From the human T2T-CHM13v2.0 reference genome, Homo sapiens: a DNA stretch of 64,000 bases. Positions 9,301-23,100 of this stretch are shown here, piece after piece. The stretch is from the NCBI RefSeq assembly GCF_009914755.1, contig NC_060935.1; one strand, 5' to 3'. The notes beneath the pieces are model-generated. The model was not told where the DNA came from, searched no databases, and saw only the letters and a program-made list of their open reading frames with translations. Positions within the stretch are counted from its first letter, which is position 1; the number at the start of each line of letters is the position of its first letter. The translations under genes and the position numbers were made by a program.

Positions 9301-12300
9301 AAGCAGTGTGTAGAGGGAAATTTATAGCACTAAATGCCCACAAGAGAAAGCAGGAAAGATCTAAAATTGACACACTAACATCACAATTAAAAGAACTAGA
9401 GAAGCAAGAGCAAACACATTCCAAAGGCAGCAGATGGCAAGAAATAACTAAGATCAGAGCAGAACTGAAGTAGATAGAGACACAAAAAAACTCTTCAAAA
9501 AAATCAATGAATCCAGGAGCTGGTTTTTTGAAAAGATCAACAAAATTGATTAACCACTAGCAAGACTAATAAAGAAAAAAGGAGAGAAGAATCAAATAGT
9601 CGCAATAAAACATGATAAAGGGGATATCACCACTGATCCCACAGAAATACAAACTACCATCAGAGAATACTATAAACACCTCTACGCAAATAAACTAGAA
9701 AATCTAGAAGAAATGGATAAATTCCTGGACACATACACCCTCCCAAGACTAAACGAGGAAGAAATTGATCTCTGAATAGACCAATAACAGATTCTGAAAT
9801 TGCGGTAATAATTAACAGCTCACCAACCAAAAAAAGTCCAGGACCAGATGGATTCACAGTCGAATTCTACCAGAGGTACAAAGAGGAGCTGGTACCATTC
9901 TTTCTGAAACTATTCCAATCAATAGAAAAAGAGGGAATCCTCCCTAACTCATTTTTTTTCTTTTTTTTTTTTTTTTTTATTGATCATTCTTGGGTGTTTC
10001 TTGCACAGGGGGATTTGGCAGGGTCATAGGACAATAGTGGAGGGAAGGTCAGCAGATAAACAAGTGAACAAAGGTCTCTGGTTTTCCTAGGCAGAGGACC
10101 CTGCAGCCTTCCGCAGTGTTTGTGTCCCTGGGTACTTGAGATTAGGGAGTGGTGATGACTCTTAAGGAGCATGCTGCCTTCAAGCATCTCCTAACTCATT
10201 TTATAAGGCCAGCATCATCCTGATACCAAAGCCTGGCAGAGACACAACAAAAAAAGAGAATTTTAGACCAATACTCCTGATGAACATTGATGCAGAAATC
10301 CTCAATAAAATACTGGCAAACCGAATCCAGCAGCACATCAAAAAACTTATCCACCATGATCAAGTGGGCTTCATCCCTGGGATGCAAGGCTGGTTCAACA
10401 TATACAAATCATTAAACATAATCCAAGATATAAACAGAACCAAAGACAAAAACCACATGATTATCTCAATAGATGCAGAAAAGGCCTTTGACAAAATTCA
10501 ACAGCCTTTCATGCTAAAAACTCTCAATAAATTAGGTATTGATGGGATGTATCTCAAAATAATAAGAGCTATTTATGACAAACCCACAGCCAATATCATA
10601 CTGAATGGGCAAAAACTGAAAGCATTCCCTTTGACAACTGGCACAAGACAGGGATGCCCTATCTCACCACTCCTATTCAACATAGTGTTGGAAGTTCTGG
10701 CCAGGGCAATCAGACAGGAGAAAGAAATAAAGGATATTCAATTAGGGAAAGAGGAAGTCAAATTGTCCCTGTTTGCAGATGACATGATTGTATATTTAGA
10801 AAACCCCATCATCTCAGCCCAAAATCTCCTTAAGCTGATAAGCAACTTCAGCAAAGTCTCAGGATACAAAATCAATGTGCAAAAATCACAAGCATTCTTA
10901 TACACCAATAACAAACAAAGAGCCGAATCATGAGTGAACTCCCATTCACAGTTGCTTCAAAGAGAATAAAATACCTAGGAATCCATCTTACAAGGGATGT
11001 GAAGGAACTCTTCAAGAAGAACTACAAACCACTGCTCAACAAAATACAACAGGAAACAAACAGAACATTCCATGCTCATGGATAGGAAGAATCAATATCG
11101 TGAAAATGGCCATACTGCCCAAGGTAATTTATAGATTCAATGCCATCCCCATCAAGCTACCAATGACTTTCTTCACAGAATTGGAAAAAACTACTTTAAA
11201 GTTCATATGGAACCAAAGAAGAGCTCGCATTGCCAAGGCAATCCTAAGCCAAAAGAACAAAGCTGGAGGCATCACGCTACCTGACTTCAAACTATACTAC
11301 ATGGCTACAGGAACCAAAACAGCATGGTACTGGTACCAAAACAGAGATATAGACCAATGGAACAGAACAGAGCCCTCAGAAATAATACCACACATCTACA
11401 ACCATCTGATCTTTGACAAACCTGACAAAAACAAGAAATGGGAAAAGGAGTCCCTATTTAACAAATGGTGCTGGGAAAACTGGCTAGCCATATGTAGAAA
11501 ACTGAAACTGGATCCCTTCCTTACACTTTATACAAAAATTAATTCAAGATGGATTAAAGACTTAAATGTTAGACCTAAAACCATAAAAACCCTAGAAAAA
11601 AACCTAGGCAATACCATTCAGGACATAGGCATGGGCAAGGACTTCATGTCTAAAACACCAAAAGCAATGGCAACAAAAGCCAACATTGACAAATGGGATC
11701 TAATTAAACTAAAGAGTTTCTGCACAGCAAAAGAAACTACCATCAGAGTGAACAGGCAACCTACAGAATGGAAGAAAATTTTTGCAATCTACTCATCTGA
11801 CAAAGGGCTAATATCCAGAATCTACAAAGAACTCAAACAAATTTACAAGAAAAAAACAAACAACCCCATCAAAAAGTGGGCAAAGGATATGAACAGACAC
11901 TTCTCAAAAGAAGACACTTATGCAGCCAAAAGACACATGAAAAAATGCTCATCATCACTGGCCATCAGAGAAATGCAAATCAAAACCACAGTGAGATACC
12001 ATCTCACATCAGTTAGAACGGCGATCATCAAAATGTCAGGAAACAACAGGTGCTGGAGAGGACGTGGAGAAATAGGAACACTTTTACACTGTTGGTGGGA
12101 CGGTAAACTAGTTCAACCATTGTGGAAGTCAGTGTGGCGATTCCTCAAGGATCTAGAACTAGAAATACCATTTGACCCAGCCATCCCACTACTGGGTATA
12201 TACCCAAAGGATTATAAATCATGCTGCTGTAAAGACACATGCACACGTATGTTTATTGCGGCACTATTCACAATAGCAAAGACTTGGAACCAACCCAGAT

Positions 12301-20100: not shown

Positions 20101-23100
20101 ATTGCCTTAATTTCAGAATCTGTTATTGGTCTATTCAGAGATCAACTTCTTCCTGGTTTAGTCTTGGAAGGGTGTATGTGTCCAGGAATTTACCCATTTC
20201 TTCTAGATTTTCTAGTTTATATGCGTATAGGTGTTTATAGTATTCTCTGACAGTAGTTTGTATTTCTGTGGGATCAGTCGTCATATCCCCTTTATCATTT
20301 TTTATTGCGACTATTTGATTCTTCTCTCTTTTCTTCATTAGTCTTGCTAGCAGTCTATCTACTTTGTTGATCTTTTCAAAAAACCAGCTCCTGGATTCAT
20401 TAATTTTTTGAAGGGTTTTTTGTATCTCTATCTCCTTCAGTTCTTCTCTGATCTTAGTTATTTCTTGTCTTCTGCTAGATTTTGAATTTGTTTGCTCCTG
20501 CTTCTCTAGTTCTTTTAATTGTGATGTTAGGGTGTCAATTTTAGATCTTTCCTGCTTTCTCTTGTGGGCATTTAGTGATATAAATTTCCCTCTATCCACT
20601 GCTTTAAATGTGTCCAAAAGACTCTGGTACATTGCGTCTTTGTTCTCATTGGTTTCAAAGAACATCTTTATTTCTGCCTTCATTTCGTTATGGACCCAGT
20701 AGTCATTCAGGAGCAGGTTGTTCAGTTTCCATGTAGTTGAGCAGTTTTGAGTGAGTTTCTTAATCCTGAGTTCTAATTTGATTGCCCTGTGGTCTGAGAG
20801 ACAGTTTGTTGTGATTTCTGTTCTTTTACATTTGCTGAGGGTGTTTTACTTCCAATTATGTGGTCAATTTTAGAATAAGTGCGATGTGGTGCCAAGAAGA
20901 ATGTATATTCTGTTGATTTGGGGCGGAGAGTTCTGTAGATATCTATTAGGTCTGCTTGGTGCAGAGCTGTGTTCAAGTCCTGGATATCCTTGTTAATTTT
21001 TTGCCTCGTTGATCTAATATTGACATTGGGGTGTTAAAGTCTCCCACTATTATTGTGTGGGAGTCTAAGTCTCTTTGTAGGTCTCTAAGAACTTGGTTTA
21101 TGAATCTGGGTGCTCCTGTATTGGGTGCATATATATTTAGGATAGTTAGCTCTTCTTGTTGAATTGATCCCTTTACCATTATGTAATGGCCTTCTTTGTC
21201 TCTTCTGATCTTTGTTTGTTTAAAGTCCAGGATTGCAACCCCTGGTTTTTGTTTTTTTGTTTGTTTGTTTGTTTTGGTTTTTTTTTTTTTTTTGCTTTCC
21301 ATTTGCTTGGTATATCCTCCTCCATCCCTTTATTTTGAGCCTATGTGTGTCTCTGCACGTGAGGTGGGTCTCTTGAATACAACACACTGATGGGTCTTGA
21401 CTCTTTATCCAGTTTGCCAGTCTGTGTCTTTTAGTTTGGGCATTTAGCCCATTTACATTTAAGGTTAATGCAGTTATGTGTGAATTTGATTCTGTCATTA
21501 TAATGCTAGCTGGTTATTTTGCCCATTAATTGATGTAGTTTCTTCATAGCATTGATGGTCTTTACAATTTGGCATGTTTTTGCAGGGACTAGTACCGTTT
21601 GTTCCTTTCTATGTTTAGTGCTTCCTTCAGGAGCTCTTGTAAGGCAGGCCTGGTGGTGACAAAATCTCTCAGCATTTGCTTGTTTGTAAAGGATTTTATT
21701 TCTCCTTCACTTATGAAGCTCAGTTTGGCTGGATATGAAATTCTGGGTTGAAAATTCTTTTCTTTAAGAATGTTGAATATTTGCCCCCACTCTCTTCTGG
21801 CTTGTAGAGTTTCTGCTGAGAGATCTGCTGTTAGTCTGATGGGCTTCCCTTTGTGGGTAACCCAACCTTTCTTTCTGGCTGCCCTTAACATTTTTTCCTT
21901 CATTTCAACCTTGGTGAATTTGACAGTTATGTGTCTTGGGGATGCTCTTCTCAAGGAGTATCTTTGTGGTGTTCTCTGTATTTTTTGAATTTGAATGTTG
22001 GCCTGCCTTGCTAGGTTGGGGAAGTTCTCCAGGATAATATCCTGAAGAGTGTTTTCTAACTTGTTTCCATTCTTCCTGTCACTTTCAGGTACACCAATCA
22101 AACGTAGATTTGGTCTTTTCACATAGTCTCATATTTCTTGGAGGCTTTGTTCGTTTCTTTTCATTCTTTTTTCTCTAATCTTGTTTTCTCACTTTATTTC
22201 ATTAATTTGATCTTCAATCACTGATATCCTTTCTTCAGCTTGATCGTATTGGCTACTCAAGCTTGTGTATGCTTCACGAAGTTCTCGTACTGTAGTTTTC
22301 AGCTCCATCAGGTCACTTAAGCTCTTCTCTACACTGGTTATTCTAGTTAGCCATTTGTCTAACTTTTCAAGGTTTTTTGCTTCCTTGCAATGGGTCAGAA
22401 CATGCTCCTTTAGCTCGGAGAAGTTTGTTATTACTGGCCTTCTGAAGCCTACTTCTGTCGACTTGTCAAACTCATTCTCTGTCCAGTTTTTTTCCCTTGC
22501 TGGCGAGGAGTTGTGTTCCTTTGGAGGAGAAGAGGCATTCTGGTTTTTGGAATTCTCAGCCTTTCTGCTCTGGTTTCTCCCCATCTTTGTGGTTTTATCT
22601 ACCTTTGGTCTTTGATGTTGGTGACCTACGGATGGTGTTTTGGTGTGAACGTCCTTTTTGTTGATGTTGATGCTATTCCTTTCTGTTTGTTAGTTTTCCT
22701 TCTAACAGACTGTCTCCTCAGCTGCAGGTCTGTTGGAGTTTGCTGGAGGTCCACTCCAGACCCTGTTTGCCTGGGTATCACCAGTGGAGGCTGCAGAACA
22801 GCAAATATTGCTCTCTGATCCTTCCTCTGGAAGCTTCGTCCCAGAGGGAGGGGCACCTGCCTATATGAGGTGTCTGTTGGTCCCTACTGGGAGATCTCCC
22901 AGTCAGGCTAAAGGGGGTCAGGGACCCATTTGAGGCAGTCTGTCTGTCATCAGAGCTTGAACACCATGCTGGCGGAACCAATGATGTCTTCAGAGCTGTC
23001 AGGCAGGGATGTTTAAGTCTGGAGAAGCTATCTGCTGCCTTTTGTTCAGATATGCCCTGCCACCAGAGGTGGAATCTAGAGAGGCAGTAGGCCTTGCTGA

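What the first reader, a model, noticed from the sequence alone, without database searches (positions are those of the whole stretch)
9590..20750. Inverted L1 copies A and B share a frameshift and a ~240-bp identical tract
Seen: both have ttgatctct (9765-9773; reverse complement at 20137-20145) where copy C has ttgaatctct, a shared 1-bp deletion. They also share acagattct, atagtcgca and gggtccataac. Positions 12198-12440 match the reverse complement of 17459-17701 with no mismatch I can find (SCCCKD...QPRCP...AAIRKDE), although B's 3'UTR and flanking ORF2 look like an older subfamily. Inference: recent conversion or recombination between the inverted pair. Together with the A/C tracts this makes a three-way exchanging L1 cluster undergoing local concerted evolution.
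Basis: partly seen in the sequence, partly recalled or inferred. Interest (0 to 1): 0.78.

Follow-up and report, generated by a model that had tools for sequence, protein, structure and literature searches.

The report
Gene conversion between neighbouring L1 repeats
Two old, dead L1 retrotransposons lying head-on 5 kb apart in an intron of CCDC73 have copied short stretches of sequence from one to the other, a well-known repair by-product that is clearly documented here but has no evident functional consequence.

Summary
A 12198-12440 equals the reverse complement of B 17459-17701 at 243 of 243 bases. The next longest identical A/B run is 83, and 20,000 shuffles never exceeded 182. An exhaustive whole-genome scan of the 190-base core found no other copy within 2 mismatches.

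B is an independent insertion with its own 12-bp target-site duplication inside an older L1. Both of B's flanks group with B-type copies, while the tract groups with A. B-only variants number 45 of 668 flank sites and 0 of 243 tract sites. So A overwrote 243-247 bp of B by non-allelic gene conversion, without crossover.

The shared 1-bp deletion is also real: 3 copies genome-wide against 5,546 intact. With two other rare shared variants it marks an older or patchy A/B exchange.

A's 3' ORF2 had itself been overwritten by copy C, 31 kb away. Two private C variants therefore travelled C to A to B.

This is a clean example of a known process. Interest is modest, and "concerted evolution" overstates it, because A and B remain about 89% identical overall.

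The parts
6332..12476 (+). L1 copy A. The 5' end is full length. The 3' end is truncated inside ORF2, with no 3'UTR, poly-A or target-site duplication found.
   Evidence: Self-BLAST and 3-way alignment. The translation of 11070-12440 matches human L1 ORF2p 8UW3 residues 803-1259, E 8.6e-294. L1 homology ends near 12476.
17185..23622 (-). L1 copy B, an older type. It is an independent insertion into the old L1 copy D.
   Evidence: The 12-bp target-site duplication AAGAACATGTAG lies at 17173-17184 and 23623-23634, its only two occurrences in the window. The best unlinked hits to its flank 17702-18100 reach only 93%.
37962..43820 (+). L1 copy C, the least mutated of the three. It lacks the equivalent of A 9438-9757.
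   Evidence: C-only variants number 8 in 450 bp, against 20 for A.
12198..12440 (+). Donor side of the recent conversion, in A.
   Evidence: 0 of 243 mismatches to B. It carries three rare G variants at 12229, 12298 and 12370.
17459..17701 (-). Acceptor side of the recent conversion, in B. The tract is 243 bp, and at most 247 bp if A's 12441 T arose later.
   Evidence: B is A-type at 3 of 3 diagnostic sites here, against B-type at 10 of 11 and 19 of 21 in the flanks. There are 0 B-only variants where 16.4 are expected. The tree switches.
9596..9797 (+). Older or patchy A/B exchange, A side. It comprises T at 9600, the 1-bp deletion after 9767 (a frameshift followed at once by TGA), and A and T at 9791-9792.
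   Evidence: Genome counts are 10 of 2,184, 3 against 5,546 intact, and 24.
20109..20321 (-). The same shared rare variants, B side.
11150..11899 (+). Stretch of A overwritten by C (C to A conversion). The shared rare variants run from 11218 to 11717.
   Evidence: A-only variants fall from 20 per 450 bp to 3 per 750 bp, and AC-shared rare variants rise from 1 to 9. C is the top genome-wide hit at 99%, with the next at 97%.
12102..12440 (+). Second stretch of A shared with C. It carries rare variants at 12102 G, 12189 C, 12298 G and 12370 G, and overlaps the later A to B tract.
   Evidence: 12102 G is in 0 of 56 unlinked copies and 12189 C in 2 of 56.
13419..17172 (-). Old, diverged L1 copy D (67-70% identical to A). 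B inserted into it. It continues beyond B at about 23635 onward.
   Evidence: Self-BLAST. The junction sequences read on as L1 ORF2 on both sides of B.
12476..12545 (.). (TA)n/(CA)n microsatellite at the point where A's L1 homology stops.

Best explanation
A and B are two L1PA retrotransposon copies that inserted independently, tail to tail, 5 kb apart. A break in B's ORF2 was repaired using A as the template. This was non-allelic (ectopic) gene conversion, probably intrachromatid synthesis-dependent strand annealing, and it involved no crossover. It replaced 243-247 bp of B (17459-17701) with A's sequence, including three private A-to-G substitutions of A.

No difference has arisen since. At about 1e-9 substitutions per site per year (general knowledge), the event probably falls within the last ~6 million years. 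That date is inferred.

Earlier, A's own 3' ORF2 (about 11150-11900 and 12102-12440) had been overwritten by copy C, 31 kb away in direct orientation. Two of C's private variants (12298 G and 12370 G) therefore reached B through A.

A still older or patchy A/B exchange around 9600-9792 spread a 1-bp frameshift deletion and two or three rare substitutions. Its direction is unresolved.

What is shown: the identity, topology switch, donor and acceptor roles, the independence of the insertions, and the rarity of the shared variants. What is inferred: the repair pathway, the dates, and whether C to A was one discontinuous event or two.
For: Identity:
- 0 of 243 mismatches.
- The run is an outlier: 243 against a next-longest of 83, and a permutation maximum of 182 in 20,000.

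Genome-wide uniqueness:
- A DNA search scored 40 of 2,465 candidates. Only A and B reach 100%, C reaches 99%, and the other 37 reach 97-99%.
- An exhaustive pattern scan of the 190-base core gives A and B at 0 mismatches, none at 1-2, and 8 at exactly 3.
- The haplotype G-G-G at 12229/12298/12370 occurs in A and B only, and in 0 of 27 A-like and 0 of 29 B-like unlinked copies.

Discontinuity in B:
- Diagnostic sites read B-type at 10 of 11 in the 5' flank, A-type at 3 of 3 in the tract, and B-type at 19 of 21 in the 3' flank.
- B-only non-majority sites number 45 of 668 in the flanks and 0 of 243 in the tract, where 16.4 are expected (P about 8e-8).
- A CpG-aware expectation is 15.9.

Trees: B sits with B-like copies in each flank and as sister to A in the tract.

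Direction: in the tract A differs from C at only 3 sites, the same as the A/C background. A was therefore not overwritten by B.

Independence and no crossover: B has an intact 12-bp target-site duplication, and the old L1 D continues on both sides.

C to A: A-only variants go from 20 to 3, AC-shared rare variants go from 1 to 9, and C-only variants go from 8 to 7. C ranks first genome-wide for 11100-11900 and is absent from the top 40 for 10200-11000.

Frameshift region: the deletion 25-mer has 3 genome matches against 5,546 for the intact 26-mer. The third carrier, L063, lacks the other shared variants.
Against: - No second human assembly or ape orthologue could be examined. The pre-conversion state of B's tract is inferred from unlinked copies, not observed.
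- The reference sets were ascertained. The A-like copies were picked for likeness to the tract and the B-like copies for likeness to B's 5' flank. Only the 3' flank comparison and the B-like copies' state in the tract are free of that bias.
- Only 3 diagnostic sites fall inside the tract.
- Each of the three G variants occurs singly in 8-11 of the 27 top hits, so each is recurrent rather than unique. Only the combination is unique.
- To the right of the tract, A offers only about 36 bp of L1 homology before its truncation, which is short for a repair template unless the truncation came later.
- For the frameshift region, local identity is not significantly raised (p = 0.09).
- For C to A, 19 of 56 reference rows were dropped as under 85% identical to A.
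Confidence: 0.9

Rival explanations
1. Assembly or polishing artefact: reads from A were used to correct B, which would create a false identical patch.
For: None from any call. It is raised only because a single assembly was available.
Against: - The patch is short and sits between flanks that differ from A at about 8%, so long reads spanning B would be placed unambiguously.
- The boundaries coincide with B-type sites on both sides.
- The locus shows two other, older exchanges that carry later mutations. An artefact would not produce those.
Confidence: 0.03
2. No exchange took place. The tract is simply a stretch where both subfamilies share one consensus and neither copy happened to mutate, or it is a mutational cold spot.
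For: The tract is close to the common state of young L1PA copies. Eight copies, C among them, lie exactly 3 mismatches from its core, and only 3 diagnostic sites separate A-like from B-like copies there.
Against: - B would need 0 private changes where 16.4 are expected.
- B would also need to have hit independently the same three rare A-to-G changes as A. In the B-like copies these are found in 1, 0 and 0 of 29.
- B-like copies differ from the tract at 6 to 25 sites in 28 of 29 rows, and the 29th is a badly aligned row with 51. The old copies D and E differ at many sites. So it is not a cold spot.
Confidence: 0.01
3. A and B are the two arms of an ancient inverted duplication of one L1. The shared frameshift would then be inherited, and the tract a relic.
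For: The inverted homology spans nearly the whole elements, and a frameshift is shared.
Against: - Homology stops exactly at the L1 5' ends, with no shared flank.
- B has its own target-site duplication inside D.
- The 5'UTRs are only 74-79% identical.
- The flanks of the tract belong to different copy groups.
- For 9400-9955, neither copy is in the other's top 40 genome-wide.
Confidence: 0.01
4. Reciprocal recombination (an inversion of the 5-kb spacer by crossover between the inverted L1s, or two such crossovers) rather than non-reciprocal conversion.
For: Inverted repeats of this size can mediate inversions (general knowledge). A double crossover 243 bp apart would leave the same sequence in B.
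Against: - A single crossover would have swapped the 3' parts of A and B and separated B's two target-site copies and the two halves of D. They are intact and collinear.
- A reciprocal double exchange would have put B-type sequence into A's tract. A's tract stays C-like, with 3 differences.
Confidence: 0.04

Closest known systems
Non-allelic gene conversion between nearby Alu or other transposable-element copies. Sources: review PMC6598467, passages read; it cites Aleshin and Zhi 2010 for raised rates within 10 kb. Also PMC8230782, passages read, with 98 Alu-Alu cases in primates.
   Same: - A short tract of one dispersed repeat is overwritten by a neighbour.
- Non-diagnostic private mutations are shared.
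- The subfamily signal switches inside one element.
- The partners of the recent event lie within 10 kb.
   Different: - The partners here are about 6-kb L1 copies, not 300-bp Alus.
- One exchange spans 31 kb.
- A two-step relay (C to A to B) can be read from the variants.
Arm-to-arm gene conversion in human Y-chromosome palindromes (PMC3723533, abstract seen in a search listing only).
   Same: Intrachromosomal conversion between inverted repeats separated by a short spacer.
   Different: - By that abstract, palindrome arms exceed 99.9% identity, with multi-kilobase tracts and continuing homogenisation.
- Here the arms are about 89% identical and only a 243-bp patch plus a few older patches were exchanged.
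- The arms here are independent insertions, not a duplication.
L1 gene conversion described in rodents (Burton et al. [quoted passage not shown] Only the title was seen, in the reference list of PMC5640379.
   Same: It proposes conversion as a way for L1 copies to acquire another copy's sequence.
   Different: I could not read the paper, so no detailed comparison is possible.

Membership tests
Non-allelic (ectopic) gene conversion tract | The partners are paralogous sequences of independent origin, not alleles or one duplicated segment. | tested here: met
   B has its own 12-bp target-site duplication inside the old L1 D. There is no flank homology. The two copies group with different sets of copies in the flanks.
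Non-allelic (ectopic) gene conversion tract | A discrete tract is far more alike than its flanks, beyond chance. | tested here: met
   243 of 243 bases are identical against about 8% background divergence. The permutation maximum is 182 in 20,000, and P is about 3e-7.
Non-allelic (ectopic) gene conversion tract | The tract and its flanks give incongruent phylogenies. | tested here: met
   B sits among B-like copies in both flanks. In the tract B is sister to A, with the A+B+C clade at 0.94.
Non-allelic (ectopic) gene conversion tract | The donor's private variants are transferred, and the acceptor's private variants are erased. | tested here: met
   The G-G-G haplotype occurs only in A and B, in 0 of 56 unlinked copies. 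There are 0 B-only variants where 16.4 are expected.
Non-allelic (ectopic) gene conversion tract | The exchange is non-reciprocal and without crossover: the donor is unchanged and the flanking markers keep their phase. | tested here: met
   A's tract stays C-like, with 3 differences. B's target-site duplication and the continuity of D are intact.
Non-allelic (ectopic) gene conversion tract | The pre-conversion state is seen at the orthologous locus in an outgroup or in other haplotypes. | not testable with these tools
   Only this one human assembly could be searched.
LINE-1 (L1PA) retrotransposon copies | ORF2 encodes the L1 endonuclease / reverse-transcriptase protein. | tested here: met
   The translation of A 11070-12440 aligns to human L1 ORF2p (8UW3) residues 803-1259, E 8.6e-294. 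I inferred B and C by alignment to A, and did not scan them separately.
LINE-1 (L1PA) retrotransposon copies | Named subfamily assignment (L1PA4, L1PA7 and so on). | not testable with these tools
   No repeat library was on hand. Only relative ages come from private-variant density: C-only 8 and A-only 20 per 450 bp, and B-only 45 per 668 bp.

The most novel reading that the evidence does not exclude
This CCDC73 intron may hold a persistent focus of ectopic recombination. L1 copies in both orientations, up to 31 kb apart, have exchanged sequence at least three times over many millions of years. Private mutations, including inactivating ones, were relayed stepwise from C to A to B. The latest event would be human-specific or still polymorphic, and the inverted pair might also carry an unrecognised inversion polymorphism of the 5-kb spacer.
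Probability: 0.2. Interest if true: 0.5.

Novelty: new member of a known kind. Interest (0 to 1): 0.3.

Why it matters
This is a tidy, fully resolved example of how dead repeats keep trading sequence. There are two practical lessons.

First, L1 ages and subfamily calls taken from divergence can be wrong locally. A's 3' ORF2 looks young because C overwrote it, and it stays open for 457 codons.

Second, shared "diagnostic" or frameshift mutations between neighbouring copies need not mean common descent.

The exchanges also show that the inverted pair physically pairs, which is the precondition for an inversion. No effect on CCDC73 is indicated.

Tried and rejected
- Inverted duplication of one L1: rejected by B's target-site duplication and the absence of flank homology.
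- A-B synapomorphies across the whole element: with D as outgroup, the AB|CD and BC|AD patterns number 9 each, against 66 for AC|BD. There is no element-wide A/B affinity. Likewise A=B≠C 161 and B=C≠A 157.
- Raised identity around the frameshift: not significant (13/207 against 37/349, p = 0.09).
- The third genome copy with the deletion (L063) as a possible source: it lacks the other shared variants.
- B's 250-bp internal insert (18826-19075) as a templated piece of A: it is 88% identical to A, 90% to B and 86% to C, with no special affinity.
- Literature phrase search for L1-L1 gene conversion: 1 paper, and that only through its reference list.
- Coordinate slip: searches used a B coordinate that was one base off. 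I found this and recomputed. The conclusions did not change, and I cite the corrected calls.
I used a smaller set of 16 short stretches instead, so those reference groups are small (9 and 8).
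Full report
LAYOUT

The window holds three near-full-length L1 copies.
- A is on the plus strand, 6332-12476.
- B is on the minus strand, 17185-23622.
- C is on the plus strand, 37962-43820 (self-BLAST; three-way alignment).

A and B face each other tail to tail across a spacer of about 4.7 kb. The spacer contains a microsatellite, Alu-like sequence and the 3' part of a much older L1, D, on the minus strand at 13419-17172.

The translation of A 11070-12440 aligns end to end with human L1 ORF2p (8UW3 residues 803-1259, E 8.6e-294).

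B is flanked by the 12-bp direct repeat AAGAACATGTAG at 17173-17184 and 23623-23634. These are its only two occurrences in the window. The sequence on both sides reads on as the old L1 D. B is therefore an independent insertion into D, not one arm of a duplication.

A's L1 homology stops at about 12476 inside ORF2 and runs into a (TA)n/(CA)n microsatellite. A has no 3'UTR, poly-A or target-site duplication.

THE OBSERVATION

A 12198-12440 equals the reverse complement of B 17459-17701 at 243 of 243 positions. The first mismatches on either side are at 12197 and 12441.
- Over the whole elements A and B differ at 620 of 5,812 aligned positions. In the ORF2 part they differ at 301 of 3,700.
- The next longest identical run is 83.
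- Placing the 301 mismatches at random 20,000 times gave a longest run of mean 73 and maximum 182.
- The analytic chance of a run of 243 is about 3e-7.

C and D have one more base there.

IS THE TRACT EQUALLY LIKE UNLINKED COPIES?

The assembly that holds the window could be searched.
- A DNA search with the tract scored 40 of 2,465 candidates. A and B were at 100%, C at 99%, and the other 37 at 97-99%.
- An exhaustive pattern scan with the 190-base core (12208-12397), allowing up to 3 mismatches, found 10 places. A and B had 0 mismatches, none had 1 or 2, and 8 (C among them) had exactly 3.

A's tract thus looks like the common state of young copies plus three A-to-G changes, at 12229, 12298 and 12370.
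- Human L1 ORF2p has Y, K and K where A and B have C, R and R.
- The old copies D and E carry A at these sites.
- Among the 27 best unlinked hits, each G occurs singly in 8-11 copies, as expected when hits are ranked by likeness to the query.
- No copy has all three. The G-G-G haplotype is in 0 of 27 A-like and 0 of 29 B-like copies. C has A-G-G.

WHO GAVE AND WHO RECEIVED

I fetched two reference sets from the genome.
- 27 A-like copies, picked by likeness to the tract.
- 29 B-like copies, picked by likeness to B's 5' flank 17702-18100, where the best unlinked hit is only 93%.

After I corrected a one-base coordinate slip, the counts are as follows.

| Segment | Length | Diagnostic sites | B's state | B-only non-majority sites |
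|---|---|---|---|---|
| 5' flank | 399 bp | 11 | B-type at 10 | 19 |
| Tract | 243 bp | 3 | A-type at 3 | 0 (3 non-majority sites, all shared with A) |
| 3' flank | 269 bp | 21 | B-type at 19 | 26 |

- B-only non-majority sites are 45 of 668 in the flanks and 0 of 243 in the tract, where 16.4 are expected (P about 8e-8).
- A CpG-aware expectation is 15.9 (with the one-base slip).
- At 12197, the first base outside the tract, B carries C. That base is in 14 of 29 B-like copies and 0 of 27 A-like copies.

The 3' flank is free of ascertainment, because neither set was chosen on it. There it still separates B (closer to B-like copies) from C (closer to A-like copies).

Maximum-likelihood trees per window behave as follows (one badly aligned row, L059, was left out, and A was left out where it has no L1 sequence).
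- In each flank, and in both flanks joined, B sits inside clades made only of B-like copies, with support up to 0.93.
- In the tract, B is sister to A, and A+B+C form a clade at 0.94 among A-like copies.

Inside the tract A differs from C at 3 sites, which is its normal distance from C in this part of the element. So A kept its own sequence and B was overwritten.

Because B's target-site duplication and D's continuity are intact, there was no net crossover.

TIMING (INFERRED)

There are zero differences over 243 bp in two lineages. At about 1e-9 substitutions per site per year (general knowledge), this gives a 95% upper bound near 6 million years. At half that rate the bound is about 12 million years.

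THE FRAMESHIFT REGION

The deleted form, as a 25-mer, occurs 3 times in the genome: in A, in B, and in one copy 24 Mb away. The intact 26-mer occurs 5,546 times. The third carrier lacks the other variants.
- T at 9600 is in 10 of 2,184 copies that share the 22-base context.
- The AT at 9791-9792 is in 24 copies. I did not count a denominator.

Against 9 A-like and 8 B-like unlinked copies over 9400-9955:
- A has 20 private sites and B has 25.
- A and B share four rare states: 9600 T (0 of 17), the deletion (1 of 17, the copy picked for it), 9791 A (2 of 17) and 9792 T (3 of 17).
- They also share one uninformative CpG site, 9685.

Against this, A/B mismatch density is 13/207 in 9598-9804 and 37/349 outside it (p = 0.09). 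Neither copy is in the other's top 40 genome-wide here.

The best reading is an old exchange, or short patches from one heteroduplex. Its direction is unresolved. Chance sharing of three independent variants of such rarity is very unlikely (inference from the counts above).

gggtccataac is shared. It looks ancestral, with C changed, and I give it no weight.

A AND C

For A 11100-11900, C is the best hit in the genome (99%, 1396 bits), and the next is 97% (1323 bits). For the control 10200-11000, C is not among the 40 scored hits, and the best is 96%.

I compared A and C against 37 unlinked rows. I had dropped 19 of 56 as under 85% identical to A, most likely truncated or rearranged copies. The counts are below.

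| Interval in A | A-only | C-only | AC-shared rare |
|---|---|---|---|
| 10700-11149 | 20 | 8 | 1 |
| 11150-11899 | 3 | 7 | 9 (each in 0-2 of 37 rows) |
| 11900-12049 | 5 | 3 | 1 |
| 12050-12199 | 1 | 1 | 3 |

A's private density collapses in 11150-11899 while C's total stays near 2%. So C was the donor and A the acceptor.

One shared variant, 12102 G (0 of 56 unlinked copies), turns a cysteine of ORF2p's C-terminal cysteine-histidine motif into glycine. By recall that motif is needed for retrotransposition. If so, the variant arose after insertion and was then copied.

Two of the variants that C gave to A (12298 G and 12370 G) lie in the stretch that A later gave to B. A's own later change, 12229 G, went with them. 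C's later changes at 12219 and 12252 did not. This orders the events as C to A, then A to B.

WHAT IS KNOWN

Conversion between dispersed repeats is established, mostly for Alu.
- A review states that rates are raised between copies less than 10 kb apart (PMC6598467, passages read).
- A primate survey found 98 Alu-Alu cases and notes that sharing of non-diagnostic mutations is frequent (PMC8230782, passages read).
- Y-chromosome palindromes show conversion between inverted arms (PMC3723533, listing abstract only).
- An older paper on rodent L1 conversion was seen by title only.
- My phrase search for L1-L1 conversion found one paper, through its reference list. Subscription journals are not in that library, so this says little about what is in print.

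VERDICT

The thing itself is an ordinary, if unusually legible, product of ectopic repair between neighbouring repeats. A and B stay about 89% identical overall, so "concerted evolution" is too strong. I saw no sign of a functional consequence.

Noticed in passing
window 9956-10189: A carries a 234-bp insert that B, C and D lack. It begins with a poly-T run and is flanked by a direct repeat of at least 13 bp (CCTAACTCATTTT). It is therefore a 5'-truncated retrotransposed element on the minus strand. By recall it resembles the 3' end of an SVA element; I did not test this.
   Followed up: partly
window 18826-19075: B contains a 250-bp piece of L1 ORF2 (the region equal to A 9075-9315) in inverted orientation, inserted at the L1 position equal to A 11062-11068. 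A has a small deletion at that same position, and A's likeness to C changes just beyond it, between 11063 and 11218. The piece is 86-90% identical to A, B and C alike. Its origin is unexplained.
   Followed up: partly
window 12441-12545: A is truncated at its 3' end inside ORF2, about 36 bp beyond the converted tract, and runs into a (TA)n/(CA)n microsatellite. An A-private C-to-T change at 12441 makes the first stop codon after 457 open codons.
   Followed up: partly
window 11917-12063: This is an island of 6 A-only variants between the two stretches that A shares with C. One of them (12063) changes another cysteine of the ORF2p cysteine-histidine motif to arginine. Either the C to A conversion was discontinuous or there were two events.
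   Followed up: partly
window 11991: A, B and C all carry G (valine) where 25 of 27 A-like copies, 24 of 29 B-like copies and human ORF2p have A (methionine). The site lies outside the 243-bp tract. It may be a further small exchange or chance.
   Followed up: no
window 41069-41081: C lacks the equivalent of A 9438-9757, an internal deletion of about 320 bp ending 12 bp before the frameshift site.
   Followed up: no
window 31056-31817: Self-BLAST shows many offset self-matches at 82-90% identity, which indicates a tandem-repeat array of about 760 bp.
   Followed up: no
   Followed up: yes
window 4548-5275: A further old L1 3' fragment (E) lies on the minus strand, 75-78% identical to A, B and C. 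I used it as an outgroup.
   Followed up: partly
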